Both the position numbers and the translations under genes were made by a program. A DNA stretch of 64,000 bases. It comes from Turneriella sp. (lineage in GTDB: Bacteria; Spirochaetota; Leptospiria; Turneriellales; Turneriellaceae). Below, one piece after another: positions 47,144-63,667 of this stretch; positions within the stretch are counted from its first letter, which is position 1, and every line of letters begins with the position of its first letter. The notes under the pieces are model-generated. The model was given only the letters and a program-made list of their open reading frames with translations, was not told the origin of the DNA and did not search any database. The stretch covers positions 608,001 to 672,000 of the forward strand of contig CBDIID010000003.1 in assembly GCA_965279515.1 (NCBI GenBank), written 5' to 3'.

Positions 47144-49240
47144 CTACCTTTTCGTTAAGACGACAATCGACGGAACGGGTCTGTTATCATTCCCGGTCGA
47201 GTTTGTTCGATTTAGGGGCAAAGGCCCCTTTCGCGGAATGACGATTTGCGAGGATCCGCCGCTGTCGAATAGGATCACGTTCTCTCCACCAACACCGGCA
47301 ATCTTGTCGCGAAACCGCTCTAGAGTCAGGCCGATATTTGTCTTCCAGCCATCACTGACCACGAGGAATATATAACTGCCCCCAAATGCGATTGCCGTTC
47401 GCGCGTCCCCGGAAATATCTTGCGACCAACCGGCATCGACTAGAGCGGCCGAAACATTCTTAAGTAAACCGTTTTCCACGAGTAATGCACCTCCACCAAC
47501 CGCATGGAAAGCCGATGGCAGCTCATCCTCTTTGAAATGCGTCGCAGTAGTTTTTGCCAGGAATACTTCATTGGTGGCTGTCAGAGCAAATACGGGCCGT
47601 TTCGGAATTGTTTTTATGCAGAAGCCCAAATTGTCATACAATTTGCAGGTATTGAACTTAACTGCCCCGTCGATCTTGTGGAAGCCGACTAAATTTGTTT
47701 CCTTCCCTTCTTCCTTCACTGGACCAAACAAGCCGGCATTAATAGCCGCCAGAACGGGAATTCCGTTCGCCTGCAGATTACCAACCCAACTTTTGAGCGA
47801 ATAGCCAATCGCGGCACCGCCACCTACAGTGGCTTGGACATGGGGTTTGAGGCTAATCTCACCATTTAGCAGAGAACTTTTCGCAATAAAGACCCAATGC
47901 ATGGCTAAGCCCACTTCGAATGTGCGGCGGCAGTAAAAAATACCGGAAGCGAGGTTCTCCCCGGTAACACCCAGCCGTTCTTTGCATGGATCGTTTCTCA
48001 GGCTAGGGAGATCGACTATTGCTTCGCCAGGCGATGGATATTTCTCCAGTTCTTGGCGCACTGCGACTACCTCGGGGCGATTGATCGAGGTTTCAGCCGG
48101 CAGATATTTTTTTATTTGGATCTGCGGCATTTTGAAATCAAAAGCAGGAAATTTCATACCGAAGGTGAAGCCTTCTGAATCAGGGTACTGATGCTCGATA
48201 CCCCAATCGACGCGTATATGATTTAGGTCGGAGATATCAATGTTCGACTGCATTCCCCACTGCTTCTGGATAAATCCCTCCACTGTAAGCTCCACCCATT
48301 CTCTTGCCAAGGTAGGTATTTGTCCGACGAGCCAGAACACGCGATCAGCCAGGAAACCGGCGACTGAGCCGATGACTCCAATGAGATCTGCAACGAAGCC
48401 GCCAAAGTTAGCATTGACCCGCAGGTTTGTTTCAGCCATTGGTCTAGTTGCCGCAGTTAAGAAGCCTGCATCAGGATAGCATCTGTAACCCAGGAATTTC
48501 ACACAGTATCGATCTGCGTAGTACTCGATCACTGCGCCGCCGTCGGCGTATTTCTCATACATGGCCTGCCCCGTATCTGTATTTATGCCGTAAGTAAGGC
48601 CAGCGAGGTATTTGCCCTTCGGAGCACCGGAGAAATAAACCTCCGCACCTTCTTGAAAGAGGAGTTGCTGTAAACTCACCGTAGAGTTTTGATCGCCCAG
48701 AGCATGCGCAATCATTGTGGCTCGCGCAACGTAGTATGCGAAGCCCGGACCGTTTTTTTCTATGACTTCGGCTGCCATGTTGTCTCTTTTGATTTCAATG
48801 TGGTTTCGTTGCGGCAAAATATGGAATGCTAGCGCACGCGTGCCGCTCTTACCAATAATCGTATCCGTGACGAGGAGTGAACCATCCGGCAGCGGCGAAG
48901 TAGTGGCATATACCGGAGTAACTGCCGCGGAATTGTATTCGGGTGTCACCTTCAGGAGAAACTCCTTATGGTTATTGCCACCGCAATCGACGTCGATCTT
49001 AACCACGCTGCTGATGCCCGGTGATAAATTGCCAATCGTCAGGTAATTGCCATACCTCTTCCCAGACCGCTCGCTCCGTACATCGCAGCCCTCGGCGCCC
49101 TCTAATCGGATGTTTGCCGAAGTTCCGCGCGCCCAAGCCAGATTGACCCCAACGCGATCAATAGGATTCTCGGTATGCGCACAATGCGGAAAGTAGACAA
49201 AAATCGGTATTAGCAGCAAAGTTTTTAATGAATATTTCAT
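47144..49240 (-). CDS. Exported protein with C-terminal phosphodiester glycosidase (NAGPA-like) domain
   Basis: AINAGLF, GGGALLV, ARTAI, VSDG, DSGGSS and RPV motifs; AGGAG RBS. Confidence 0.78.
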   Translation of the reverse strand: MKYSLKTLLLIPIFVYFPHCAHTENPIDRVGVNLAWARGTSANIRLEGAEGCDVRSERSGKRYGNYLTIGNLSPGISSVVKIDVDCGGNNHKEFLLKVTPEYNSAAVTPVYATTSPLPDGSLLVTDTIIGKSGTRALAFHILPQRNHIEIKRDNMAAEVIEKNGPGFAYYVARATMIAHALGDQNSTVSLQQLLFQEGAEVYFSGAPKGKYLAGLTYGINTDTGQAMYEKYADGGAVIEYYADRYCVKFLGYRCYPDAGFLTAATRPMAETNLRVNANFGGFVADLIGVIGSVAGFLADRVFWLVGQIPTLAREWVELTVEGFIQKQWGMQSNIDISDLNHIRVDWGIEHQYPDSEGFTFGMKFPAFDFKMPQIQIKKYLPAETSINRPEVVAVRQELEKYPSPGEAIVDLPSLRNDPCKERLGVTGENLASGIFYCRRTFEVGLAMHWVFIAKSSLLNGEISLKPHVQATVGGGAAIGYSLKSWVGNLQANGIPVLAAINAGLFGPVKEEGKETNLVGFHKIDGAVKFNTCKLYDNLGFCIKTIPKRPVFALTATNEVFLAKTTATHFKEDELPSAFHAVGGGALLVENGLLKNVSAALVDAGWSQDISGDARTAIAFGGSYIFLVVSDGWKTNIGLTLERFRDKIAGVGGENVILFDSGGSSQIVIPRKGPLPLNRTNSTGNDNRPVPSIVVLTKR

Positions 49241-49252
49241 GGTTTTCTCCTT

Positions 49253-50686
49253 TTATTTCTCGGTTGTGCGCTGGGCCGTAACCGCAAATCGCACAACCGT
49301 CGTATAAGTGATATTTGCATAAACCCCTTCGTCAAAAGAACAATCGTATGGGACCGGCAAAGGCACAGGTGGCCACCAACCTGCCCATACCCACATAATA
49401 CAGGTAGCGCTCACGCGGCGATAGCCGACGAGTTCATTCTTCGTTTCGGTTTTTGAGCCCTCCGCCGCTATAAGCGTTACCTCGGAGATGGTATCATCCG
49501 CAACGAAAGTATCTCCCGCGGCTATGGTTAAACCGTTTGCTACCATCGACGCACCGGAATTATTCGGCGCGTATGAAATAACTTGGTTGTTTCTGAGCCG
49601 CCCCACAAAGCATGCCGGGGAGACGATAGACCCTGCCTCTATCGCCACAGCCAAATTCTTGTTGTTCTGGTTCACGGCTAAATCTGTACCATACGCTTGC
49701 TGGTTGAGCAGGTAGGTTTTGTCCAGATAGACACGAGATGCGTACCGCGTGTCCATAACGCGAAATCTCGTGGAAAAGATCTGTGCGTTTGCGTAGTCTT
49801 GATTTTCTACTTGCGAAATTCTGGCGGCGTCACTATATATTGTGCTCGGGTATGAAAACGTAGTCCCTGTCGGAGCATCGTCGATAAATACCTCGGCGCT
49901 TCGTTCGCCGGCAACTGTAATCGTATTCTGCACTCCGAATCCGTGTAGGCGAATAAAGCTTTCGAAAGGATCCATATTGTTGATGGCCACGGCTCCCAGC
50001 CTGAATACGCCGCTTTCGGAGAAAGGACCCTGATCGCCGTCGGCGAACACAGCGCGCACCCGAACAAAGTAGATATATTCGGGTGAACCAGAGAAGGTAA
50101 GCAACGGCGTTACCGTATGTTCGCTCACCTCGTTATTACCCGTGTTAAAGAGTGGATTATCACGGCGAACTTCAATGTAGTATTTAACCGCACCATAAAC
50201 AGCACGCCAGGTGATTTTTGCTGGAACATTTAAAGATTGGGCTTCTATCGCAGGGTCAGGAGCAATAAAGATTGGACGCTCCGCTTTGTCGATAATGGGG
50301 GTCGTTTCCAGAGGGATAAGATTGTAAGCGGAATCCAAATAGTTGGAAACGACGCTGCCTGACTCAAGCACTAAGCCTGAAACTGTTAAACTGGTTTGAA
50401 CGCCGGTACCGAAACCGAAGTTCAGTAGCGCACAACCTTCCGCATTCACGCTGATTTGAGCGGGGCGCCCCTGCAGAGAACTTTCCGCCAGCGCGGTCAC
50501 GGTTTTTATCCGCTGGTTCGCGCAGGCCTTGACAATGATCTCTTTGCTCAAATCGAACCTAGAGCCTGAGGGTGGTTCTATCTGAGTCAACCCATGCTTA
50601 CTAACAGTCAGATCAATCCCACCACGGCAAGCCGCGAAGGAAAATACGGCAAAAAAAGCAAAATATCGCCGAAGGGTAAAACGCAT
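49253..50686 (-). CDS. Lipoprotein with FN3-like domain
   Basis: FAAC lipobox after Met 50686 (alternative start 50815); ITW..YFVRVRAV..GPFS. Confidence 0.7.
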   Translation of the reverse strand: MRFTLRRYFAFFAVFSFAACRGGIDLTVSKHGLTQIEPPSGSRFDLSKEIIVKACANQRIKTVTALAESSLQGRPAQISVNAEGCALLNFGFGTGVQTSLTVSGLVLESGSVVSNYLDSAYNLIPLETTPIIDKAERPIFIAPDPAIEAQSLNVPAKITWRAVYGAVKYYIEVRRDNPLFNTGNNEVSEHTVTPLLTFSGSPEYIYFVRVRAVFADGDQGPFSESGVFRLGAVAINNMDPFESFIRLHGFGVQNTITVAGERSAEVFIDDAPTGTTFSYPSTIYSDAARISQVENQDYANAQIFSTRFRVMDTRYASRVYLDKTYLLNQQAYGTDLAVNQNNKNLAVAIEAGSIVSPACFVGRLRNNQVISYAPNNSGASMVANGLTIAAGDTFVADDTISEVTLIAAEGSKTETKNELVGYRRVSATCIMWVWAGWWPPVPLPVPYDCSFDEGVYANITYTTVVRFAVTAQRTTEK

Positions 50687-50934
50687 AGGGCCCCCCTTTA
50701 AGGTGATCAAGGGCCATTCGCTGGTTGCTTCGGCCACACCAGCCCCAACGATGCAAAAAACAATATTGTGACAAAAAAAGGGAAAATGTTTCCTAAGAAA
50801 TTGTATAAGAGACATAGCAATCCTCCCAAGACAATTCTAGATTACGTTGATTGAAGGGCCAATTCAGGGCCGTCAATATTTTTATCGCAGAAAGACTGTA
50901 GTTTGCCGGCATATTACTGCAATTTTGAATTTTC

Positions 50935-52206
50935 ATGCTTTGCAGCATGATTTCTGCATTTACTGATGCCTTTATGAAAACTGGCAAGCCAAGCTTTGAA
51001 TGGGGAGGCCTTAAGATTCCGGCAGCGAATCGCATCCTTAACTTTTTTCTGACATCTCTACAAAACCTTAACCTCAATCAGACTGAAAAAATAGACCTAT
51101 TTAAAGCTTTTGTAATCCTATTCTCAGACCTATTTTATGTCAAACCCTCGGCAGACGACGAAAAAGAGCAAACGAAGTTACAAAGAAAGCTGTCGCCAAT
51201 CGACAAAAGAAGAACCGCAATAATGAAAGCTCTTAACGGATTGAAAATCAACCTCAAGCCGACCGAATACGATGAGATATGCAATAAGGTGACACGCGAC
51301 AGCCAGCTGTGGAATTCTCTCAAATTGACATCGCTTGAGATCTTAGAAAAGCCTAGGTATCAGTTCAAACCACAATTCAGAACTATAACGACCACCGAAG
51401 CAGTGTTTAGGCATTTTTTCAAGGGATCCACCGTTCCAAATTGGTTTCCAAGGTTCATACTCAGTCATGCAGACGGATATCTTGGAGTTGCGAGAACAGC
51501 TATCGAAAGAGTAATAAAAAGATTTGAGTCTACTCCTCCATCCAGCATTAAACTCGCCGTAAGCGGGGGCAACAGCAGCTTCACCTACGTTTTTCGGCTT
51601 GTTGAAGATTTGCTCGAAGCAAAAATTAATCTCAATAACATTGATTTTGAAATATACACCGCTGGCGATCGGGCCTTTTTATCAGAGCTAGAAGAACGAA
51701 TAGACAACGCATGGATATTAAACTCAATTCTTAAACAACAGAGACTGAAAAGTCGATACGTATCATTCGAGAAAGCACGCGCACAACAGAAAAACGATCA
51801 AGATAATAAGCTCCACCTTGATGTCCTTTATTGCGGCATAGGCTCGTTTGAAACCCGCAACAACACATCTTTCAAAGAATACCTAGAAGACAGAAATATC
51901 TCTGGATGGGATTTCGAAATTTGCGATGAAATTTTTTTTATAACCGAGCCAAAGGATAAAGAAACTCAAAAAAAACTGCAAGAGTACTTTACCAATATTT
52001 TCAGACATAACGAAGTTGGCGCAAAAAGGAAAATCTTACTTTGCAACGGTGCAGAAAAGGCTAAGCCATTACGGAGCTTCTTGAGTTACCTATCTAGACG
52101 CCAGGACAGCTACACCTTGCAGAAACAAAACATAGTTACTCATGTCATCTTAGACACTGAGTTACTCCGCGCATTATTGCGAATGAGTCATCTCGCTGGA
52201 GGATAA
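50935..52206 (+). CDS. Protein with SorC/DeoR-type sugar-binding-like C-terminal domain
   Basis: LAVSGG, DVLYCGIG, GAEKA and THVILD pattern; unrecognised N-terminus. Confidence 0.55.
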   Translation: MLCSMISAFTDAFMKTGKPSFEWGGLKIPAANRILNFFLTSLQNLNLNQTEKIDLFKAFVILFSDLFYVKPSADDEKEQTKLQRKLSPIDKRRTAIMKALNGLKINLKPTEYDEICNKVTRDSQLWNSLKLTSLEILEKPRYQFKPQFRTITTTEAVFRHFFKGSTVPNWFPRFILSHADGYLGVARTAIERVIKRFESTPPSSIKLAVSGGNSSFTYVFRLVEDLLEAKINLNNIDFEIYTAGDRAFLSELEERIDNAWILNSILKQQRLKSRYVSFEKARAQQKNDQDNKLHLDVLYCGIGSFETRNNTSFKEYLEDRNISGWDFEICDEIFFITEPKDKETQKKLQEYFTNIFRHNEVGAKRKILLCNGAEKAKPLRSFLSYLSRRQDSYTLQKQNIVTHVILDTELLRALLRMSHLAGG

Positions 52207-52660: not shown

Positions 52661-55600
52661 ATGAAAATTGAGAAAGGAACTGTGATTTTAGCCGCCACTG
52701 ATCTGGCGAACCATATCGGATGCCACTATCTGTCTGGTCTCAATCTAGCCGTTGCCACAGGTACCAGAAATAAGCCTGATTGGAAGAATCCCCAGAATGC
52801 TGCTCTTATTGAGCGTGGCATAGCTCATGAAAAAGCCTTTATCGAAAAATTAGGTCACGATGGCCTTAATATCCATGACCTTGAAGATCAAGGGAGCATA
52901 CAGGAGACCATTAAGGCAATGCAAGCAGGGTTTGACATCATCGTGCAGGCTCCCCTTGGCAACGCACGCTGGTATGGTATTGTAGATATCCTGAGAAAAG
53001 TTGACCGAAAAAGTAAATTGGGCTCCTGGTCTTACGAGGCTCTCGATACTAAACTTTCTCACGAAACTCGGGGAAGCACTATTCTGCAAATGTGTCTATA
53101 CACCAATCTGATCGAAGAAATACAAGGGATAACACCTGAGTATTTCAGAGTTGTGAAGCCGGGAAACGAATTTGTTGAAGAGGTTTTTCGTGTATCTGAT
53201 TACTACGCATATTTTGGGTTTCTTCGCGATGCTTTGGCTTCGGGCTTAAGTCAGCCTGAAGCACAAAGCACGATTTTGACCAATCTCTATCCAGAACCCG
53301 TCACAAAGTGCGAGTTTTGTAACTGGGAACGAGAATGTCGCGATCGGCGCGTACAAGACGATCACCTTTCATTGGTCGCGAATATTACACGAGTTCAGAG
53401 ACGTGAATTAGAATCTCAAGATGTGAGGACATTGACGAGTTTGGCGAAATGGGAACAGCCCAACGATTGGCGGCCAAGTAGAGGCGAAACCGTTAGTTAC
53501 AAGAAAGTTCGACATCAGGCAGAAGTACAGCTCAAGACTCGGGAAAACAATCGAATACATTACGATGATTTACCGATCGAACCAGACTTTGGTCTCTCTG
53601 CATTACCTGAACCGTCAGGTGGGGATATATTTTTTGACATTGAAAGCGATCCCTTTGTCGGAGAATCCGGCCTGGAATATCTACTGGGATATTGCTACTT
53701 CCCCACAGGTAGTGCCGCGGAAAATCCCATTTATGAAGGGATTTGGGGGCTGGACTATGCAAAGGAGAAAACCGCATTTGAGAAGTTTATTGATTTCATA
53801 ACCAACCGCCTTCAAGAGTTTCCCGATTTGCATATCTATCATTATGCTCCATATGAGCCTTCTGCGATTAAGCGGCTCATGGGGCGACATGGGACAAGGG
53901 AGAATCAAGTTGATTTTCTCTTACGCAGTAAGCGCTTTGTGGATTTACTACAAGTAGTCCGCCGATCCGTACGGGTCGGGATTGAACGGTATTCATTAAA
54001 GGATCTTGAACCTTTATATCAATTCAGCCGGCAGGTTGAGCTTAAAGATGCATCTCGAAGCTTAAACTTGCTAGCATACCAACTTGAAATGAATGATGCC
54101 GATGGCATTGACCCAAAAACCGCAGAGAGTGTTCTGCATTATAACGAAGATGATTGCCTTTCAACATGGCATCTGCGTAACTGGCTTGAAGAACGTAGAA
54201 ATACCTTAATTGCTGGCGGAGCATCAGTAAGTAGACCCGTAATTCCCCCAGGAGAACTACAAAGTCCTGAGAGGACAGAAGCGCAAAATGAAATAGACAG
54301 ACTTAAGCAAGAGCTTTCTGCAGGTTTAGAAGGTGATCCTGATACATTTTCGGAAGATGAGCGAGGTCGATGGCTCCTGGCTCAGCTACTCGAATTCCAT
54401 CAGCGCGAACAAAAATCCCAATGGTGGGAATATTTTCGTCTTACAGAACTTCCTCCCGATGAATACCTTCATGAAAAAAGTGCCATTTATGGTCTAAATT
54501 TTTTGAGATCGGTAGGTGGCACCGCGGCCTGCCCTGTGCATCAGTACCAGTTTCCCCCTCAAGAAGTAGATTTGCGATCGGGTGCAGAATGTCATTTTGC
54601 GAAAGAGAAGTACGGAGAGATTGAGAGTATTGACAAAGAAAACAGAACACTTGATATAAAGAAGAATAGAAAAAGCGCCGCACAGCATCCAATTGCTGTT
54701 TTTGGACATTCGATTGTTCCGGATGCTGTATTGAGAGCTGCCTTACAATGCATCGCCAAATCAGTCGTAGCTCACGGGTTTGATCGCAATAGTCCATACT
54801 CTGCCGCCTTCGATCTATTATTACGTCAACCACCTCGACTTAGCAATGGTTTAGTTCGTTCAACCCTGCGTCAGGACAATGAGAGTACGATAGAAGCTGC
54901 GAAGCGTATCGTCATTGATCTACAAGGGGGAGTGTTGTCTATTCAGGGGCCGCCAGGTACGGGCAAAACACATACGGCGGCAGAAATGATCATAGCCTGC
55001 ATACAAGCCGGCCTTAAAGTAGGTATAACGGCTCTAAGTCATAAAGTAATTCGCAATTTGATTGAGAAGGTATGCGAGCTATCCCTTAGGTCTCAAATTC
55101 CAGTCCGTTGCTGCGTTAAGGTAAAAGAAATAACAGCTGGTGCCAATGGAAATATACTTGAAACAACGGATAATGCCGGAGCTTTGAATTTTCTGCGAAA
55201 TGATACCCCTTCAGTGTTAGGCGGAACAGCCTGGCTCTGGGCACGCCCAGAGTTTGCAAACGCTGTGGATGTATTATTTGTCGATGAAGCTGGTCAGTAT
55301 TCCCTCGCGGACACTCTGGTGGTTTCTCAAGCAGGCCGAAATCTAGTTTTATTGGGCGATCCACAACAATTAGAGAGGCCCATTCAGGGGACGCACCCAC
55401 CAGGGTGTGATCTTTCGGCGCTTGAACACCTTTTTGGTCAAAACCAAACAACCGTGAGTGCCGATAAGGGTCTCTTCTTGGAAGAGACTTGGAGGATGAC
55501 CCCAGCCATTTGTGAATTTATCTCGGATCAATTTTATGAGAGTAAACTACATAGTAAAGATGGCTGCCAATTCCAGGAAATACAATCGTCATCTCAATTT

Positions 55601-56095
55601 AAGGGCTCGGGCTTGTTTTATGTTCCCGTAGAGCATACGGGAAATCAAAGTCACAGCCCGGAAGAAATTGCCGTAATTGGAAGAATTATCGATGATCTTT
55701 TGGATGAATCGAGCACCTACACTGATCGTCATGGGGCAACTCAACCACTAACCTTACAGAATATCTTGATTGTGGCACCTTACAACTCCCAAGTAAGTTA
55801 TTTGCAAGGCCATATTCCGGGTGCACGCGTCGGGACAGTAGATAAGTTTCAGGGACAGGAAGCTGCTATTGTGATATACTCTCTGACGACTTCAACCCCG
55901 GAGGATGCCCCAAGGGGTATGGAGTTTCTCTACAGTCGAAATCGGTTTAACGTCGCGATTTCGAGAGCAACCTGCATTGCCATAGTTGTTGGGAATCCGA
56001 TGCTTTTCCAACCAGAGTGTCACGCACCAAGACAGATGAAGTTAGCAAATGCGTTTTGTGCTTTTTCCCAGAAGGCAAAGCTCCTCGAGTTATGA
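52661..56095 (+). CDS. TM0106-family RecB-like nuclease / RNase H-like / SF1 (DNA2/UPF1-like) helicase
   Basis: D..DTK nuclease motif, FFDIE..YNEDD, GPPGTGKT, DEAGQ, GDPQQL, TVDKFQGQE and NVAISRA. Confidence 0.92.
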   Translation: MKIEKGTVILAATDLANHIGCHYLSGLNLAVATGTRNKPDWKNPQNAALIERGIAHEKAFIEKLGHDGLNIHDLEDQGSIQETIKAMQAGFDIIVQAPLGNARWYGIVDILRKVDRKSKLGSWSYEALDTKLSHETRGSTILQMCLYTNLIEEIQGITPEYFRVVKPGNEFVEEVFRVSDYYAYFGFLRDALASGLSQPEAQSTILTNLYPEPVTKCEFCNWERECRDRRVQDDHLSLVANITRVQRRELESQDVRTLTSLAKWEQPNDWRPSRGETVSYKKVRHQAEVQLKTRENNRIHYDDLPIEPDFGLSALPEPSGGDIFFDIESDPFVGESGLEYLLGYCYFPTGSAAENPIYEGIWGLDYAKEKTAFEKFIDFITNRLQEFPDLHIYHYAPYEPSAIKRLMGRHGTRENQVDFLLRSKRFVDLLQVVRRSVRVGIERYSLKDLEPLYQFSRQVELKDASRSLNLLAYQLEMNDADGIDPKTAESVLHYNEDDCLSTWHLRNWLEERRNTLIAGGASVSRPVIPPGELQSPERTEAQNEIDRLKQELSAGLEGDPDTFSEDERGRWLLAQLLEFHQREQKSQWWEYFRLTELPPDEYLHEKSAIYGLNFLRSVGGTAACPVHQYQFPPQEVDLRSGAECHFAKEKYGEIESIDKENRTLDIKKNRKSAAQHPIAVFGHSIVPDAVLRAALQCIAKSVVAHGFDRNSPYSAAFDLLLRQPPRLSNGLVRSTLRQDNESTIEAAKRIVIDLQGGVLSIQGPPGTGKTHTAAEMIIACIQAGLKVGITALSHKVIRNLIEKVCELSLRSQIPVRCCVKVKEITAGANGNILETTDNAGALNFLRNDTPSVLGGTAWLWARPEFANAVDVLFVDEAGQYSLADTLVVSQAGRNLVLLGDPQQLERPIQGTHPPGCDLSALEHLFGQNQTTVSADKGLFLEETWRMTPAICEFISDQFYESKLHSKDGCQFQEIQSSSQFKGSGLFYVPVEHTGNQSHSPEEIAVIGRIIDDLLDESSTYTDRHGATQPLTLQNILIVAPYNSQVSYLQGHIPGARVGTVDKFQGQEAAIVIYSLTTSTPEDAPRGMEFLYSRNRFNVAISRATCIAIVVGNPMLFQPECHAPRQMKLANAFCAFSQKAKLLEL

Positions 56096-56146: not shown

Positions 56147-57325
56147 TCAAGTAAAAATCAGCACGAAGACGGACCAACACTTAAGTTCATTTGCCTCAAC
56201 ATGACGTAGGCCATGATTCTTCAAATGCGCTAAAACCGTTGGATGCGGATGCTTTGGACTGTTGGATGGGGCAGAAGTCACCCAGAAACAATCCTTCGGC
56301 AGCTTCGGCAGAAGCATCGGATTCCATCCCTTAGAGGAACCGTGATGCGGTAACAAATAAGTACCAGTCTTCGGAAACAAGTTATGGTAATGCTTCTCAA
56401 AATCGGAAAAGATGTATTGTGTAGCCAGATCCAGATCTCCCGTTAGAAGACAGCCAAACAGTATGGGTTTCGAGAAAAAAAACTTATGGCTGAACAATGG
56501 AAATGGAATTATTTTTAACGATTTTGTCGGCCCATGAAATAAACAGAGACTAGTATTGTTTCGGCTAATTTTCAAGCCGGCATAGATTGACTTAAGTTTC
56601 TTCAATTTGGTCCGGTCTTGAATTGCTGTCAGAATATCAGCCACTGACTGCAAACCTTCTCTTTGTATCATAGAATGAAATTTTGCAAGGTTTGCGGCGG
56701 GGATTTTCACATTGAAAAACTTAAAGAACCACAATCCGGTCAAACCGAATACAGAGTTATGCTTTGCAAAATGAAATTTTCCGTTCTCGTATTCATCGTA
56801 GAAAGTATCTCCATCTTCTAAATCCCTTAATTCTGCCGGATCTTTAAATACTGGTCTGAAAATATGATCCGAATCTGGATCTAAGTCAGGAAAATCTGGT
56901 AATTGACTATCTAAGTTATCAGGTTCGCCCCCGCGAATTACAAAAATATTTCCAACGCCACCCTCTAACAAGTAGCCTACCGGATTTCGAAGAAACTGTA
57001 AATACCAAGGCGGCGCATCCGGATCAGCGATAGCTAGCATTAATCGTTCAGAAGCTGTTACATACGGAATTACAACGGTCTGCGGAATGATTCCGTTCTT
57101 TAACAGATGGTCGACTCCGTTCATGTGATCCTGATCAAAATGCGAAATAACCAATAAGTCCAGCGATACTAAGCGCTTTTGCTTAATCAATCGATCTAGG
57201 ATGTTTTTCAGGTGAGTCGGGTTCTGTGAACCGCAGTCATACATGAATTGAAAATTATGAATACGCCCAGTATAGCAGAGCCCTTTGCCGACTTCTCTAA
57301 ATGTAAACTCACCAGTTGTCAGCAT
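56147..57325 (-). CDS. MBL-fold (ComEC/Rec2-like) hydrolase
   Basis: VGKG, YDCGS, SHFDQDH, NNTS, LTGD, PHHGS and HPHP motifs. Confidence 0.85.
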   Translation of the reverse strand: MLTTGEFTFREVGKGLCYTGRIHNFQFMYDCGSQNPTHLKNILDRLIKQKRLVSLDLLVISHFDQDHMNGVDHLLKNGIIPQTVVIPYVTASERLMLAIADPDAPPWYLQFLRNPVGYLLEGGVGNIFVIRGGEPDNLDSQLPDFPDLDPDSDHIFRPVFKDPAELRDLEDGDTFYDEYENGKFHFAKHNSVFGLTGLWFFKFFNVKIPAANLAKFHSMIQREGLQSVADILTAIQDRTKLKKLKSIYAGLKISRNNTSLCLFHGPTKSLKIIPFPLFSHKFFFSKPILFGCLLTGDLDLATQYIFSDFEKHYHNLFPKTGTYLLPHHGSSKGWNPMLLPKLPKDCFWVTSAPSNSPKHPHPTVLAHLKNHGLRHVEANELKCWSVFVLIFT

Positions 57326-57401
57326 TTATCCCACCCTTTTTATGCACACAGTTCCGCAAAACAGCAGGCGGGAAATAACTTTTGTAGAAAAACTAAAGTG
57401 A

Positions 57402-57938
57402 CTAAAAGGAGTATCCAAGCTCCTGCAATTTGATACTCATCGCATGCCGGCTGACTTCAAAATCAGCGGCCAGAGCTTGTAATATCTCGTCTTCCTTATC
57501 CATAAGACTCGGCATACGTTCAATTTTCAGCTGTTTTTCCAATTCTTGAAGAACCATAAAATCAGGCATCAACAATTCAGCAGCAAACCGGTTTGCTTCA
57601 ATTTCTTTTAAATGGAGTCCTTCAGAGGCCGCCGGATCCCTTAAGAAAACTTTATCAACGTGGATTCCTGGCTGATTGTGAAGGAAAAAATGTCCAAGTT
57701 CGTGGGCAATGGTGAATCGTTGTCTATTGATGTGATGGTCTTGATTGACAAGAATGCTTGCCCGGCCATTTTCATTGATTTTCAAAACACCAGATATGTC
57801 GTCGTCAATTTCTTTGCGGAACAAGTCGACCTTCTCCATTTTCGCTATCGCATCGACGTCTACCGCAGGGTGAGTGATGTTAGCCCGTTCCAATACTTGG
57901 TGGGCAAGGTTACGTATTTCGATCTGTCTTTTCGTCAT
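57402..57938 (-). CDS. ImmA/IrrE metallopeptidase (CapP-like)
   Basis: RQRFTIAHELGH and EANRFAAELLMP. Confidence 0.92.
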   Translation of the reverse strand: MTKRQIEIRNLAHQVLERANITHPAVDVDAIAKMEKVDLFRKEIDDDISGVLKINENGRASILVNQDHHINRQRFTIAHELGHFFLHNQPGIHVDKVFLRDPAASEGLHLKEIEANRFAAELLMPDFMVLQELEKQLKIERMPSLMDKEDEILQALAADFEVSRHAMSIKLQELGYSF

Positions 57939-58254
57939 GATTTACTCCTTCAAACAGCTTTTCTATTTTGCTGAATTGAGTCGCGTCGACTCGGTCTTTT
58001 GAAAGTAAATCCAACTGCGCACCCTTTGTTTTTATCGGCAGAATGTCCACAACTCCGACACCCAATGCCGCTGCAATCCTATACAGCCTGTCGATTGGCA
58101 TACGCTGCTTTCCCTTTTCTATGTGCACAACAGAGGTCCTTGTTAAGCCAGAATCCTCTGCCAATTTTTGCTGAGTGATTCCTTTTATCTCGCGATATCC
58201 ACGAATTAAATCACCTATCGATTCATAAAGCCCATTAATTCGCGTCCGTGGCAT
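57910..58254 (-). CDS. XRE-family HTH regulator (CapH-like)
   Basis: ITQQKLA..GLTRTSVVHIEKG; overlaps the peptidase gene; divergent from the MBL operon. Confidence 0.88.
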   Translation of the reverse strand: MPRTRINGLYESIGDLIRGYREIKGITQQKLAEDSGLTRTSVVHIEKGKQRMPIDRLYRIAAALGVGVVDILPIKTKGAQLDLLSKDRVDATQFSKIEKLFEGVNHDEKTDRNT

Positions 58255-58464
58255 GTTGATAAGTATATAGGCATTATACTCAATCGACCATAAAAAGTGA
58301 ATACTGCACACATTAAAGGTGCTATGATGGCGACTTTTTTTGGCACTCCTCGCATTTCAGTGCTAATATAGCTATGGTAGATAAGCCGTTTCTCAAGAAT
58401 TGGGTCTTTTTGCTCGAAACATGGATCGGCCTTCCTACATAAATTTCAAAATAGGAGGCCAACC

Positions 58465-59649
58465 GTGGCTGCAAAGATTTCCTTTTTCCCCGTAGGTAAT
58501 GGGGATATGACTTTAATCAATCTGGAAGATAACTCTCGCATATTGATCGATTGCAATATACGTCAATGGAATGAAGAGAGTGAGTTTATGGATGTGGCAA
58601 AAGAACTTCGGAAGAAGCTGCCAAAAGATGGTAAAGGCAGACCTTTTGTAGATGTTTTCCTACTTTCACATCCCGATCACGACCATTGCCGCGGTTTTAA
58701 TCAGCACTTTTTTCTTGGGAGAATCGAAGACTATGCTAAAGAACCTGAAAATGACACCGCAAGAATTTTTGTTAAGGAAATCTGGTCATCTCCAGTGGTC
58801 TTTCGCCGTTTTTCGAGAAATGATCAGGGTGAAAAACTTTCGTCAGATGCAGAATCCTTTCAAAACGAGGTTCGGAGACGCGTTAAGTTTTTCCGCGATC
58901 AGCAAGGTGACTTTTCAAAAATTCAGGATGGCAACAAGGTCCTCGTTATCGGCCACGATGAAAGTGATAAGACTAAAGGCTTAGAAAAAATCGCCTACGA
59001 CCCTGGAGAATCTTTTAATAAGATACGGGGAATCGCAAACTCACACATTCGCTGTCAAGTTTTAGGGCCTTTACCTTTGGCTGAGATTGCAACGGAAGAA
59101 GAAATACTTTGCAAAAATGACTCCAGTGTGATACTCAATATTCATATTTCACCCGGCCAAAGTGGAAATGACGGGGTAAAATTTTTTACTGGCGGCGACT
59201 CGGAAGTTGCAATTTGGCAGCGACTCTGGGAAAAGCATAAAGCTACCAAGGTTTTAGAATATGACGTCTTACTCGTGCCACACCATTGTTCATGGCACTC
59301 TCTGAGTTCGGATAGCATAAGCAAATCAGCCAATCCCAAGGTAAACGCTGATTCGAAGAAGGCCTTATCTCAGGCGCGAAACGGTGCATTCCTCATCGCA
59401 TCAAGTAAACCGATAAAGGAAAAAGATGCCGACCCACCAGCTCTGAAGGCAAAAGAGGAATACGAACAGATTGCCAAGTCCGCAAACGGGAGATTCATCT
59501 GTGTTGGAGAAAATCCAAATGAAACCAAACCTGAGATATTGGAGGTCTTGGTAGAAAAAGAAGGGGCACGCACAGAAAACAAAACCTTCTCTGTCATGAC
59601 CAGCCAAGCTCAAAAAGGAAGTGCTAAAGAACCTTTGCCACATGGTTGA
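58465..59649 (+). CDS. MBL-fold hydrolase with flexible C-terminal tail ending in PHG
   Basis: GGAGG RBS; VGNGD, SHPDHDH, NDSS, GGD and PHHCS motifs; tail ...GSAKEPLPHG*. Confidence 0.88.
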   Translation: MAAKISFFPVGNGDMTLINLEDNSRILIDCNIRQWNEESEFMDVAKELRKKLPKDGKGRPFVDVFLLSHPDHDHCRGFNQHFFLGRIEDYAKEPENDTARIFVKEIWSSPVVFRRFSRNDQGEKLSSDAESFQNEVRRRVKFFRDQQGDFSKIQDGNKVLVIGHDESDKTKGLEKIAYDPGESFNKIRGIANSHIRCQVLGPLPLAEIATEEEILCKNDSSVILNIHISPGQSGNDGVKFFTGGDSEVAIWQRLWEKHKATKVLEYDVLLVPHHCSWHSLSSDSISKSANPKVNADSKKALSQARNGAFLIASSKPIKEKDADPPALKAKEEYEQIAKSANGRFICVGENPNETKPEILEVLVEKEGARTENKTFSVMTSQAQKGSAKEPLPHG

Positions 59650-61864
59650 TGTCCCAAATATCCCCAGAGCCATAGAGCAGGCGTACCAGGATTTGCGAAG
59701 GCATAAACTCGTTAGTAAGGTTTCTGCAGTCCAATCGACTGCGCCTGGAATATGGAAGATAGAAATTGAAATCCTGTTAGCACTACCCTCCCGTACAGCA
59801 ACTGCGGGAATTACCGCTACAGGCATAAAATCAACAGAAGTCCTGCAGATGGTATTTACTGCAAAATATCCTCAATGTGCGCCCGAACTCTTTCTACGAA
59901 TAGACTTCCCCGAGAATACAGCGCACATCAATCCTTGGAAGTCCAGTGATGGCCGCCTTTCACCCTGCATTTATGAGGGGCATTTGGAAAACCTTCTATT
60001 ATCTGGCCATGGAATTTCAGCAGTCGTTGACCAGGCTTATACATGGTTTACGAATGCAGCGAATGGGACTCTCATCGACCCCGGACAAGGATGGGAGCCT
60101 GTCCGTCGTGAAACTCAATATGGCCTAGTTACCTACGATGAGGAGGAATTGCGATCTTTCATAATAGACAATTCCGCTGGGGCCTTTTTTACATGTCATT
60201 ATTTACCAACAGTTGAAAGGTTTAAGTTCTCGGGGTACTTCTTGGAGAACGCCAGGTGGCGCAGTTTAGATGATGTTAACTTTGCGGAATTTGATCCCCG
60301 AATACAGGCTGGAAGCTCAGTAAAGAAATGCTTTGGACTTCTATTATGGGGTGGCAAGAAAGCAATATCGTCAAACTATAAACCTGATACGGCAAAGAAG
60401 CTAAGTGATTTGGAAGCCTTTGCAAAAGAATACGGATTTCAGGATAAGTTTACAGCCAAGATTTCGGACCTAATCAAAGCTTCACGGTCAAAACTCCAAG
60501 GTGTAGAGCTTATTACAGTCTTATTGGTTTTAGCGGTTCGCCGGCCATTCAACCTAAATAGTAGCTCGTCAAGCATTGAGCTGCTTAACTATTCCTGCGA
60601 GTTAAAGATCTCCGGGGATGTAGGGGCTCAAGAATCTGCTGTTTCCCCTCTATCGCATCGACATATGAACAGCGCAAATCTTTTTCGACAACTATCCGGC
60701 ACTAAGCTCATTGCTGAGAAAATCCATATCCTAGGATGTGGGAGCGTGGGCTCCAAAATTGCGATGCACTTGGCTCGATCGGGCATCGGTGAGATGACGT
60801 TAATCGATACGGCAGATTTCTCTCCGCACAATAATGCACGGCATGCGCTTTTTGATCCGAGCCTCATAGCGCGAAAGAAAGTGTTTCTATTGCAAGAAGC
60901 CTTGGAAAAAATGAAAGTTAGTTCCAGGCCCTTGGTTAAGGATATTATTTATGATGAAGCCATGTACTCGACAGCCCTGGACAAAGACGACCAGATCATC
61001 CTCATTGATTGCACGGCAAATCTTGCCGTCAGGAGCGCTCTTGCTCACAGAAGCATAGCGCAAAATGTCAGAATTCTTACTTGTGGCTTATACAACAATG
61101 GGACTCTGGGCTATTGCATGATCGAAGGACAAAAAAGGTCGAGCAGGATCGACGATCTTTACGTGAGCCTACTATCTAAAAGTTTAGAAGATGATTCTGT
61201 AGCTGAAGCACTTAGCGACACGACGATCACAAGGCAACCCGTAGGTCAAGGATGCAATTCCTTTACAATGCAAATGTCTGATTCCACGTTATCGATTCAT
61301 ACTGCGCTAATGACGGAATTTATCAGGAAGAAACTAGAGAATGGAATGCCTATGGAAGGGGTAATCTTCTTATCAAAGTTCGATCGCAACACCTTAGCTG
61401 TTCAGTCAGAGGAAATTAATGTTGCCCAGACTACGACCTTAAGTGCTGGGCAATGGTCCATACGCATTCTACCCTCGGTAGTGTTGTCAATGTCAGAAAT
61501 AGCGAAGCAGTATTCACCCAAGGAATTCGGCGGCGTAGTCTTAGGTCGATTGAATTTTGCCGAACGCGTAATCCATGTTACTAACCTACTCGATGCTCCG
61601 CCGGACAGTTCAAACTCAGAAACTGAGTTCATTTTGGGTACCGATGGATTAGAAAAACGTTTGGAGGACACATCGATGAGATCCAATAACCTTATTGCCT
61701 ACTTGGGAACTTGGCATTCTCATCCTGTGGGGGGCGAAGCCTCGGTGCGAGATCATAAAACCCTGAACCGAATTCAAACTCTTCGTGGCGGATTACCTAC
61801 TGTTTGTCTTGTCTGGACCCCTGAAGGAGTATTACCGTTAACAAACTTGGAGAATTGGCAATGA
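59642..61864 (+). CDS. E2-E1(ThiF)-JAB fusion (Cap2/Cap3-like ubiquitin-like conjugation/deconjugation enzyme)
   Basis: E2 HINP..PCIYE; E1 GCGSVGS, D..SPHNNARH, IDCT, GQGC; JAB EFGG..WHSHP..S..D. Confidence 0.88.
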   Translation: MVDVPNIPRAIEQAYQDLRRHKLVSKVSAVQSTAPGIWKIEIEILLALPSRTATAGITATGIKSTEVLQMVFTAKYPQCAPELFLRIDFPENTAHINPWKSSDGRLSPCIYEGHLENLLLSGHGISAVVDQAYTWFTNAANGTLIDPGQGWEPVRRETQYGLVTYDEEELRSFIIDNSAGAFFTCHYLPTVERFKFSGYFLENARWRSLDDVNFAEFDPRIQAGSSVKKCFGLLLWGGKKAISSNYKPDTAKKLSDLEAFAKEYGFQDKFTAKISDLIKASRSKLQGVELITVLLVLAVRRPFNLNSSSSSIELLNYSCELKISGDVGAQESAVSPLSHRHMNSANLFRQLSGTKLIAEKIHILGCGSVGSKIAMHLARSGIGEMTLIDTADFSPHNNARHALFDPSLIARKKVFLLQEALEKMKVSSRPLVKDIIYDEAMYSTALDKDDQIILIDCTANLAVRSALAHRSIAQNVRILTCGLYNNGTLGYCMIEGQKRSSRIDDLYVSLLSKSLEDDSVAEALSDTTITRQPVGQGCNSFTMQMSDSTLSIHTALMTEFIRKKLENGMPMEGVIFLSKFDRNTLAVQSEEINVAQTTTLSAGQWSIRILPSVVLSMSEIAKQYSPKEFGGVVLGRLNFAERVIHVTNLLDAPPDSSNSETEFILGTDGLEKRLEDTSMRSNNLIAYLGTWHSHPVGGEASVRDHKTLNRIQTLRGGLPTVCLVWTPEGVLPLTNLENWQ

Positions 61865-62514
61865 AACCTTTTTCAAAGTATGACGTGATAGGCGTTATGA
61901 CGCCCGGCGCGCTTCTCTTGGTGTTGCTGGGTTTTCACACAATAAAGTCCTTTAAAGAAATTTCTGACCTTTCCATCGGAGGTCTCGGCCTGCTTTCAAT
62001 TTTGTGCTTTGTAATTGGGCACATTGTTCAATCAATAGGAAACTTGATAGAGTGGCTTTATTTCAGATTTTTAGGAAAACCTACTATTCAACTTTTAAAG
62101 AAAAGATCCGGGGGGCTCGCCTCCGATCAGATTATCGCTTTAGAAAAACAAATACGCATACGTTACGGATTTAGAAGTTTTAAGATTGAAAAACAAACAA
62201 AGAAAAGCTGGCCCCCCGTCATTCGCCAGATAATTTCAGACGTATCGATTCAATCCACTGCCGAGAGATTAGAATCATTCAATAGCAACTACGGTTTGTT
62301 CCGCGGCCTCTTGGCAGCAGTCCTCATCGCTATTCCCGTGCAGATTACTATGAATGGTTTAAATATTGCTCTTTTAATGACGGACTTCGCTATCGGCGCA
62401 CTGCTGTTCGCAAGAATGCACAGGTTCGCGAAGCATTACGCCTATGAACTTATAATCCAATTCTTACTCTTAAAGAAAACGAACACCAGAGAGGTAAAAC
62501 ATGGAACAAAATAA
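61861..62514 (+). CDS. Multi-TM membrane protein, candidate effector
   Basis: ATGA overlap with the JAB stop; about 4 TM segments. Confidence 0.75.
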   Translation: MKPFSKYDVIGVMTPGALLLVLLGFHTIKSFKEISDLSIGGLGLLSILCFVIGHIVQSIGNLIEWLYFRFLGKPTIQLLKKRSGGLASDQIIALEKQIRIRYGFRSFKIEKQTKKSWPPVIRQIISDVSIQSTAERLESFNSNYGLFRGLLAAVLIAIPVQITMNGLNIALLMTDFAIGALLFARMHRFAKHYAYELIIQFLLLKKTNTREVKHGTK

Positions 62515-63010
62515 CCATAACCCAATATTGCCAATATTGGCTGGAGCTGCTATCGGCGCTTTAGCCGCAGATTTTTGGCAAGATCACGTAGACGCAGAAA
62601 ATCGAAAAAGCCGCGCAGAGATTGAATATCCAGAAGCCGTGGAAGGCGTTTTCAGGATTTTAGAGAAAGTAGGTAACCGGATAAGATTGGATACGAGTAT
62701 TACGGATGAAAATACCTATCGAAGGTCGATGGCAATGCAGCTGCGCTTCATAACAAGGTTTGATATAGAAGAAGAACCCAGTCAATTTGGTATGAAGCCG
62801 GATATTCTTCTCGATGGCTTGGTCGCCATCGAATTGAAATTGAATCCATCCAAGACGGAATTAGACCGCCTCGTCGGTCAGTTGGTTGGCTACGCTCGTG
62901 AGTGGGCAACAATAATCTGCCTAATAAATACTCCCCAAAGCGCTGTCCGGAGATTAAGAGGTTTGTTGGAGGATGGTGGGTTGGACCACCTGGAGATCTG
63001 GGAGTACTGA
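62501..63010 (+). CDS. PD-(D/E)XK-like nuclease domain protein
   Basis: KPDILL..IELK..GQL..Y motif. Confidence 0.6.
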   Translation: MEQNNHNPILPILAGAAIGALAADFWQDHVDAENRKSRAEIEYPEAVEGVFRILEKVGNRIRLDTSITDENTYRRSMAMQLRFITRFDIEEEPSQFGMKPDILLDGLVAIELKLNPSKTELDRLVGQLVGYAREWATIICLINTPQSAVRRLRGLLEDGGLDHLEIWEY

Positions 63011-63088: not shown

Positions 63089-63667
63089 ATGAAGTCTAAA
63101 CTGAAGACGAATATTCTGGCGGAATGGAAAACTCTGAAGGATTTCATTGAGCATTGGCAAGGAAAGTATCAATACCGAAACGGAATCGAAAACCTCTACC
63201 TGAATAACATTCGGAAACCTTTGACGAAGAAATCTCGGGATGAATTATTTCAGTGGAAAAATGGTGTGAAACTCTCAAAGGACAAGAGGAATTCGGTCGA
63301 AAACAATTATCCGCTCTCTTTCACTGGCTCTATCGAAGACCGCTACTTCGACGAAAATCAAGACGGTGGCGCGATCTGGAATATCTTCTACGCCCACATC
63401 TTACAACCCGATAAGTATCCAATCTTTGATCAACATACCTACCGGGCGATGATTTATTTGCAAAATCTGATACCTTTGAATTTTGATGATTTTGAAGAGC
63501 TGGAAAAAAAGTCCAAACGGGAAATCTATAGAATTTATCAAAAAGATTACATACCATTCTATTCAGGTATTCAATACATAAATCCCGCAGACCAACACAA
63601 CCGGCATAAAGACCAGGCTCTCTTTGCTTTCGGGAAGTTCTTGAAAACGGCATTGAAATATTTATAA
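63089..63667 (+). CDS. Hypothetical protein (weak HhH-glycosylase-like features)
   Basis: WK, P..YPIFD..RA and DQALF motifs. Confidence 0.55.
   Translation: MKSKLKTNILAEWKTLKDFIEHWQGKYQYRNGIENLYLNNIRKPLTKKSRDELFQWKNGVKLSKDKRNSVENNYPLSFTGSIEDRYFDENQDGGAIWNIFYAHILQPDKYPIFDQHTYRAMIYLQNLIPLNFDDFEELEKKSKREIYRIYQKDYIPFYSGIQYINPADQHNRHKDQALFAFGKFLKTALKYL

What the first reader, a model, noticed from the sequence alone, without database searches (positions are those of the whole stretch)
56147..63010. Ubiquitin-like conjugation defence system: MBL(...PHG) + E2-E1-JAB fusion + membrane protein, with no cyclase or Ubl
Seen: a translationally coupled operon MBL -> E2-E1-JAB -> 4TM -> PD-(D/E)XK with intact-looking motifs (E2 Cys in PCIYE, E1 GxGxxG and GQGC, JAB HSH). 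The MBL has a low-complexity tail ending in His-Gly. Established: in type II CBASS, Cap2 conjugates the C-terminus of the CD-NTase and Cap3 cleaves it, and MBL-linked E1/E2/JAB operons have been noted but are poorly characterised. Inference: the MBL hydrolase itself is the ubiquitin-like modifier, conjugated to phage or host proteins, with writer and eraser in one polypeptide and the TM protein or nuclease as effector.
Basis: partly seen in the sequence, partly recalled or inferred. Interest (0 to 1): 0.82.

Follow-up and report, generated by a model that had tools for sequence, protein, structure and literature searches.

The report
Known 6A-MBL phage-defence operon
This is an intact copy of an already named bacterial anti-phage system (6A-MBL), in which a ubiquitin-style ligase/protease most likely attaches a nuclease-like enzyme by its tail to other molecules; that attachment step is strongly implied by the sequences but was not shown here.

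Summary
The four plus-strand genes and their motifs are real. The MBL (58465-59649) and the E2-E1-JAB fusion (59642-61864) score well above NCBIfam's cut-offs for the named 6A-MBL anti-phage system, operon type 6a of Iyer et al. 2006. The ligase folds like CBASS Cap2 with every catalytic residue invariant. The MBL has a disordered tail; 89 of 91 non-redundant relatives carry HG, RAG, xYA or GFA at or just before the end, resembling conjugated CD-NTase tails, against 2 of 25 other MBLs. So the MBL is probably the conjugated protein, an idea already in print (Ye et al. 2024). The 4-TM gene belongs to a Csx27-like family found at 35 of 61 related loci: a common accessory, not a core part. The PD-(D/E)XK gene was beside no other locus: a passenger. 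The scan has reported 6A-MBL operons before in other genomes. Verdict: new member of a known kind; modest interest.

The parts
58465..59649 (+). 6A-MBL system MBL-fold protein (ComEC/Pce-like metallo-hydrolase) with a disordered C-terminal tail ending His-Gly; core gene
   Evidence: NCBIfam NF058524 378.6 bits, cut-off 220; invariant H69, D71, D73, H74, N218, D245, H273, H274; nearest fold ComEC beta-lactamase-like domain 9ic4, E 6.8e-12; residues 373-394 pLDDT under 50
59584..59649 (+). Predicted conjugation tail of the MBL (residues about 373-394, ending Pro-His-Gly)
   Evidence: 85 of 120 homologues end HG, 110 of 120 end in G or A; 89 of 91 representatives at 70% identity carry a tail motif
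59642..61864 (+). 6A-MBL cap2_3 protein: E2 - linker - E1 - JAB fusion, 740 aa; core gene
   Evidence: NCBIfam NF058523 530.9 bits, cut-off 320; Pfam PF14457, PF00899, PF14464; catalytic residues invariant; nearest fold Cap2 7to3, E 2.5e-26
61861..62514 (+). 4-TM membrane protein of a Csx27-like family; common accessory gene of 6A-MBL loci
   Evidence: four hydrophobic segments; weak PADLOC Csx27 match E 3e-4; profile match to the commonest TM family of related loci, hhalign probability 97.9; family present at 35 of 61 loci
62501..63010 (+). Small PD-(D/E)XK-like nuclease-fold protein; probably co-transcribed but a passenger, not a conserved part
   Evidence: conserved P100-D101, E111-x-K113 in 29 aligned relatives; profile hits no other 6A-MBL locus among 186 loci held
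57910..58254 (-). CapH-like XRE helix-turn-helix repressor (114 aa from the ATG), divergent from the operon
   Evidence: Pfam HTH_3; PADLOC capH E 7.9e-12; translation
57402..57938 (-). CapP/ImmA-like M78 metallopeptidase (178 aa, HELGH), short form
   Evidence: Pfam PF06114 E 1.3e-20; PADLOC capP E 1.1e-30
56147..57325 (-). Second, unrelated MBL-fold protein without a Gly/Ala tail; probably a stand-alone gene downstream of the regulators
   Evidence: weak LmuA/RTasMBL/Avs1a matches; only 15 bits against the 6A-MBL model; a relative at 1 of the related loci; 5 of 5 plasmid relatives examined have no ligase or TM neighbour
58255..58464 (.). Intergenic region between capH-like gene and MBL; presumed divergent promoter region
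   Evidence: one sigma-70-like site on each strand, but no more sites than in shuffles; function inferred from layout only

Best explanation
This is a 6A-MBL anti-phage operon that works like the Cap2/Cap3 module of type II CBASS with the cyclase replaced by a ComEC-like metallo-hydrolase. Inferred steps: (1) the divergent CapH/CapP-like pair represses the operon until DNA damage or infection; (2) the E1 domain adenylates the MBL's terminal Gly, passes it through E1 C538 and E2 C109 thioesters, and ligates it to an amine on a host or phage target; (3) the fused JAB domain cuts exactly after that Gly, removing conjugates and, in relatives with a few extra residues, maturing the tail; (4) conjugation switches on or relocates the MBL, which is itself the effector, most likely a nuclease; (5) the Csx27-like membrane protein is an optional helper; the PD-(D/E)XK gene and the second MBL are passengers. 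Shown here: family membership, intact catalytic residues, fold, tail conservation, neighbourhood. Not shown: every biochemical step, the target, the substrate, and defence by this copy. Confidence by part: 6A-MBL member 0.97; MBL is the conjugated protein 0.85; MBL is a nuclease effector 0.55; regulation by the divergent pair 0.7.
For: Both core proteins above NCBIfam cut-offs. Ligase nearest to Cap2 by fold with invariant catalytic residues (also across tail classes). Ligase directly follows the MBL at 95 of 97 non-redundant loci. Tail motif in 89 of 91 representatives, 72 at the very end and 17 followed by extra residues, against 1.6% of internal 16-residue windows and 2 of 25 other MBLs. 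Not an artefact of the overlapping start codon: at 74 of 125 HG loci the His codon does not supply the ligase ATG, and 59 use CAC. Each tail class falls on one clade of the ligase tree. The GFA class resembles the KPGGFA end of a Bacillus cyclase shown to be conjugated (PMC11153139, passages); CD-NTases of Cap2/Cap3 operons end in Gly or Ala (PMC10097602, passages) and have disordered tails (10.1101/2022.03.31.486616, passages). A WYL or CapP-type regulator at 42 of 61 loci. A different defence MBL is an autoinhibited DNase (10.1101/2025.09.03.673762, abstract).
Against: All comparative; no conjugate was observed. The tail classes were defined after looking at the sequences, and relatives are not independent. 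2 of 91 representatives lack a listed motif, and the relative in G011 ends ...TFGLD, fitting only a wider pattern. The nearest folds include a phosphorylcholine esterase as well as ComEC, so the substrate is open. The CapP-like protein is 178 aa and too short for the GAF domain of characterised CapP, so its trigger may differ. The primary papers on 6A-MBL could not be read.
Confidence: 0.75

Rival explanations
1. The MBL is conjugated, but it is a signalling or processing enzyme and the killing is done by a partner, here the Csx27-like membrane protein (as pore, anchor or conjugation target).
For: A protein of this TM family lies at 35 of 61 loci, 20 of them directly downstream on the same strand; translationally coupled here; type II CBASS conjugates its cyclase to a membrane-associated protein in Bacillus.
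Against: 26 of 61 loci lack this family (8 of the 61 carry another TM family), 11 have it upstream on the opposite strand with the regulator; a relative also occurs beside a different MBL with no ligase (L175); NCBIfam hits here name only two core genes.
Confidence: 0.15
2. The tail is only activated or trimmed (adenylated, thiocarboxylated or cut) as a switch, or is a docking peptide, and is not ligated to targets.
For: E1-type domains also serve sulfur transfer and peptide adenylation (ThiF, MoeB, MccB are the best sequence hits in the PDB).
Against: An E2 domain with an invariant Cys and an E1 Cys on the crossover position are kept in all classes; closest fold is Cap2, a proven ligase.
Confidence: 0.07
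3. The ligase acts on a separate ubiquitin-like protein supplied in trans (ThiS/MoaD-like or phage-encoded) and the MBL is only a co-regulated effector.
For: The genome has two other ThiF/MoeB-like matches, so sulfur-carrier proteins are probably present.
Against: Does not explain the conserved, class-specific Gly/Ala tail nor its absence from other MBLs; no Ubl gene recurs in the neighbourhoods.
Confidence: 0.03

Closest known systems
6A-MBL anti-phage system (operon type 6a of Iyer, Burroughs and Aravind 2006, PMC1779556; NCBIfam NF058523 and NF058524; anti-phage activity credited to van den Berg et al. 2024 in the review PMC13276650)
   Same: MBL followed by a single-chain E2-E1-JAB; both proteins above the curated cut-offs; no cyclase or Ubl.
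   Different: This copy adds a Csx27-like 4-TM gene, a PD-(D/E)XK-like gene, a divergent CapH/CapP-like pair and a second MBL. None is unique in kind except the PD-(D/E)XK gene, which looks incidental.
Type II CBASS Cap2/Cap3 module
   Same: E2-linker-E1 fold (7to3), both catalytic Cys, JAB peptidase, partner enzyme with disordered Gly/Ala-ending tail.
   Different: No CD-NTase or second-messenger effector; JAB is fused (a separate JAB gene occurs only in the YA/GFA-tailed relatives, 9 of 9, against 0 of 50 HG/RAG loci); the partner is an MBL.
Bil and Bub bacterial ubiquitination systems
   Same: E1, E2 and JAB activities in a defence context; Bub operons often have CapH+CapP or WYL regulators (PMC11601596).
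   Different: They use a beta-grasp Ubl and separate E1/E2 chains; Bub uses Ser rather than Cys. No Ubl here.
CapH/CapP regulators (Lau et al. 2022 preprint, 10.1101/2022.04.27.489752)
   Same: HTH plus M78 peptidase upstream of and opposite to an immune operon.
   Different: The peptidase is 178 aa, lacking room for the C-terminal GAF domain; closer in size to ImmA-type peptidases (recalled).
Csx27 of type VI-B CRISPR and its ComEC-linked relatives (Makarova et al. 2019, title and a citing passage seen in PMC7642515)
   Same: Four predicted TM segments; weak profile match; the paper's title already links this family to competence genes and a ubiquitin signalling network.
   Different: Match is weak (E 3e-4; 4 of 42 family members hit at E up to 0.05), no CRISPR genes among the proteins scanned.

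Membership tests
6A-MBL | MBL protein of the 6A-MBL family (NF058524 above cut-off) | tested here: met
   378.6 bits, cut-off 220
6A-MBL | E2, E1 and JAB in one polypeptide in that order (NF058523 above cut-off) | tested here: met
   530.9 bits, cut-off 320; Pfam order; definition in PMC1779556 Table 1 row 6a
6A-MBL | MBL gene adjacent to the fusion gene | tested here: met
   8-nt overlap
6A-MBL | Protects against phage | not testable with these tools
   needs phage challenge; indirect support from defence-type neighbours and patchy distribution
6A-MBL | MBL C-terminus is the ligase/JAB substrate | tested here: inconclusive
   sequence signature present; biochemistry not testable
Type II CBASS | CD-NTase gene in the operon | tested here: not met
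   none among 11 proteins; no PF18144 match in the genome
Type II CBASS | Cap2-like E2-E1 with both catalytic Cys and a JAB peptidase | tested here: met
Bil / Bub | Beta-grasp ubiquitin-like protein in the operon | tested here: not met
   no Ubl family; no suitable small ORF
CapH/CapP | HTH + HExxH M78 peptidase upstream and on the opposite strand | tested here: met
CapH/CapP | Three-domain CapP with C-terminal GAF domain | tested here: not met
   protein is 178 aa and matches capP profile positions 4-154 of 242 only
Csx27-like TM family | Profile match to Csx27 and four TM segments | tested here: inconclusive
   E 3e-4, 4 of 42 members; four segments
PD-(D/E)XK nuclease | Conserved PD...(D/E)xK motif on the restriction-endonuclease fold | tested here: inconclusive
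   motif conserved; no Pfam or PDB sequence match; Atlas lead 0.79 to PDDEXK_3; fold not predicted

The most novel reading that the evidence does not exclude
6A-MBL systems use a short unfolded tail as a portable ubiquitin-like tag that comes in ligase-specific classes (HG, RAG, xYA, GFA, aromatic-Gly), is made as a pro-form in a fraction of members and matured by the JAB domain, and serves to ligate a ComEC-like nuclease onto a Csx27-like membrane protein, building a membrane-tethered nuclease at the site of phage DNA entry. That would be a ubiquitin-like pathway whose modifier is itself a nuclease and whose target is encoded in the same operon. I found no test of this in the papers searched, but the primary 6A-MBL papers were not readable.
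Probability: 0.15. Interest if true: 0.65.

Novelty: new member of a known kind. Interest (0 to 1): 0.3.

Why it matters
As a locus it is one more copy of a widespread, named defence system (282 plasmid records hold a relative of the MBL). What remains open is the mechanism: I saw no paper that identifies the MBL's substrate or the conjugation target. The tail classes, the pro-form extensions and the frequent Csx27-like partner give precise, cheap tests, and would extend ubiquitin-like conjugation of non-ubiquitin folds from cyclases to hydrolases.

Tried and rejected
Complex prediction of the MBL tail (350-394) with two copies of the ligase linker-E1 region and ATP returned 'no answer' (score 0.00, controls not folded): no evidence either way. 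Idea that HG is an artefact of the overlapping ATG: rejected. Idea that MBL bodies were swapped between ligases while tails stayed with the ligase: suggested by FastTree (tail classes match ligase splits with Jaccard 1.0, MBL-body splits 0.6-0.81; 91 rows), but AU tests on a 36-row subset did not reject one clade for any class (p 0.09-0.75), so it is not shown. PD-(D/E)XK gene as a system part: rejected. Second MBL as a system part: not supported. A single-protein locus search with the ligase found nothing; the MBL alignment was used instead. Promoter and repeat scans of the intergenic region gave nothing above chance. The word-index search found only 4 relatives of the TM protein; the Atlas gave unnamed clusters only. 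Papers not held: van den Berg 2024, Ledvina 2023 (journal version), Chambers 2024, Lau 2022 (journal version), Makarova 2019; the Ledvina and Chambers preprints do not mention MBL. Preprint supplements were not seen and may bear on what is already known.

Full report
Observation. The region holds four overlapping plus-strand genes: an MBL-fold protein (58465-59649, 394 aa, ending ...EPLPHG), an E2-E1-JAB fusion (740 aa from the ATG at 59642, which overlaps the MBL's His-Gly-stop codons), a 217-aa protein with four hydrophobic segments (from 61861) and a 169-aa protein (62501-63010). Pfam gives Prok-E2_A, ThiF and Prok-JAB in order. In an alignment of 84 of the 120 ligase homologues returned, C109, the GCGSVG motif, D389, R400, K413, C538, E628, H692, H694, S701 and D704 are invariant. 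No cyclase or ubiquitin-like family was found among the 11 proteins scanned, no SMODS match in the genome, and no candidate small Gly-Gly ORF near the operon.

Identity. Both core proteins exceed NCBIfam's cut-offs for the 6A-MBL anti-phage system (378.6 against 220 bits; 530.9 against 320). The arrangement is row 6a of Iyer et al. 2006 (PMC1779556, passages). A review credits its anti-phage activity to van den Berg et al. 2024 (PMC13276650, passages); I could not read that paper. Ye et al. [quoted passage not shown] The AlphaFold model of the ligase (pLDDT 89.7) is nearest to Enterobacter Cap2 (7to3, E 2.5e-26). The MBL model (pLDDT 88.7) is nearest to the ComEC beta-lactamase-like domain and to the phosphorylcholine esterase Pce, with its metal-binding residues invariant in 63 aligned homologues. 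The family is mobile and patchy: 3 of 61 related genomes including this one, 282 plasmid records, 9 viral-contig loci. The scan's index lists 22 earlier findings with the same words in at least 21 genomes; these are unchecked notes and are not used as support.

The tail. Residues 373-394 are predicted disordered. Of the best 120 of 1657 homologues, 85 end in HG and 110 in Gly or Ala. Pooling these with 167 complete MBLs from fetched loci (4 of 171 dropped as incomplete or the window's own) and thinning to 70% identity leaves 91, of which 89 carry HG, R/K-A-G, xYA or GFA in the last 16 residues, 72 at the very end and 17 followed by extra residues (the script filed at least one YA-ending tail as an extension); the same patterns occur in 1.6% of internal windows. 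The classes were chosen after seeing the data. As a control, 2 of 25 MBLs that do not precede a ligase carry such a motif. Because His-Gly-stop can contain the ligase's ATG, I tested for a coupling artefact: at 74 of 125 HG loci (not thinned) the His codon does not supply that ATG and 59 use CAC, so the residues are kept for their own sake. CD-NTases of Cap2/Cap3 operons end in Gly or Ala and need that residue for conjugation (PMC10097602, passages), have disordered tails, and Cap3 cuts exactly after them (10.1101/2022.03.31.486616, passages); a conjugated Bacillus cyclase ends KPGGFA (PMC11153139, passages), close to the KPAGFA class here. Each tail class maps on one split of the ligase tree (91 rows); a swap of MBL bodies between ligases was suggested but not supported by AU tests.

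Neighbourhood. The ligase directly follows the MBL at 95 of 97 thinned loci with enough flank (one of the two misses has it by tblastn). Among 61 of 112 thinned loci with long flanks, 42 have a WYL (26) or CapP-type (16) regulator, 35 a member of the TM family (20 directly downstream on the same strand, 11 upstream on the opposite strand), 19 a second MBL. The window's TM protein joins that family by profile comparison (hhalign probability 97.9) and has a weak match to Csx27; Makarova et al. 2019 linked Csx27-like proteins to competence and ubiquitin-type genes (title and a citing passage only). The 169-aa protein has 57 relatives with a conserved PD...ExK motif, but its profile hits no other 6A-MBL locus among 186 loci held, no plasmid and 1 of 300 genomes of the phylum, there without MBL or ligase within the 3.5 kb fetched. 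The second MBL lacks the tail, was not found in 300 phylum genomes with this query, and 5 of the 25 plasmid relatives that I opened had no ligase or TM neighbour. The HTH/peptidase pair has the CapH/CapP layout (10.1101/2022.04.27.489752, passages), but the peptidase is short.

Mechanism. Most likely: stress-triggered derepression; E1 adenylation of MBL G394; transfer through C538 and C109; ligation to a host or phage amine; reversal and maturation by the fused JAB; action by the MBL itself, probably as a nuclease (a different defence MBL is an autoinhibited DNase, abstract only). Family, fold, residues and tail signature are shown; all chemistry, the target and the phenotype are inferred. Rivals: the TM protein as effector or target (0.15), tail activation without ligation (0.07), a Ubl in trans (0.03).

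Verdict. Observation confirmed, interpretation partly supported, system known. New member of a known kind, interest 0.3. The boldest reading not excluded, a nuclease ligated by a class-specific peptide tag to a co-encoded Csx27-like membrane protein, has probability about 0.15 and would merit about 0.65. Claims that something is not in print rest on searches of a library that lacks the key subscription papers and preprint supplements.

Noticed in passing
G000:C3 just beyond the window (L177:2254-12453, minus strand): Five-gene cluster: DUF499 ATPase, a 380-aa protein, a DUF1156-like DNA methylase, a 173-aa protein and an SNF2 helicase (below cut-off for DISARM DrmD); looks like a BREX/DISARM-like defence system converging on the 6A-MBL operon.
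   Followed up: partly
window 63089-63667 and 63675 to beyond the window end (L177:1676-2245): Two more plus-strand ORFs (192 and 189 aa) after a 78-nt gap; the second has a weak DUF4365-like match on its first part. Neither recurs at related loci.
   Followed up: partly
window 52661-56095: TM0106-family RecB-like nuclease / RNase H-like / SF1 helicase fusion, 1144 aa, with Mokosh-like helicase matches.
   Followed up: no
window 50935-52206: 423-aa protein with no family match that happens to end in Gly-Gly; 6 kb from the ligase and not found at related loci; probably coincidence.
   Followed up: partly
window 39000-64000: G+C falls to about 0.42-0.50 from about 0.52-0.59 in the first 24 kb, consistent with an acquired island.
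   Followed up: no
related loci, e.g. L026, L127, L164, L165: 19 of 61 6A-MBL loci carry a second MBL, 14 of them with the TM gene; representatives match PADLOC PDC-M48B strongly. The TM plus second-MBL pair may be a separate module that often joins 6A-MBL; L082 has ligase-TM-MBL with a relative of this window's second MBL.
   Followed up: partly
related loci with YA or GFA tails (e.g. L033, L044, L172): These have an unfused E2-E1 plus a separate JAB gene, as in type II CBASS (9 of 9).
   Followed up: partly
L178:8836-12380 (G011, same genus): A distant 6A-MBL pair (ligase just under the cut-off) whose MBL ends in Phe-Gly plus two residues, next to IS elements: a separate acquisition with another tail class.
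   Followed up: partly
window 47144-50815 (minus strand): Two probable secreted proteins, one with a phosphodiester glycosidase (NAGPA) domain.
   Followed up: no
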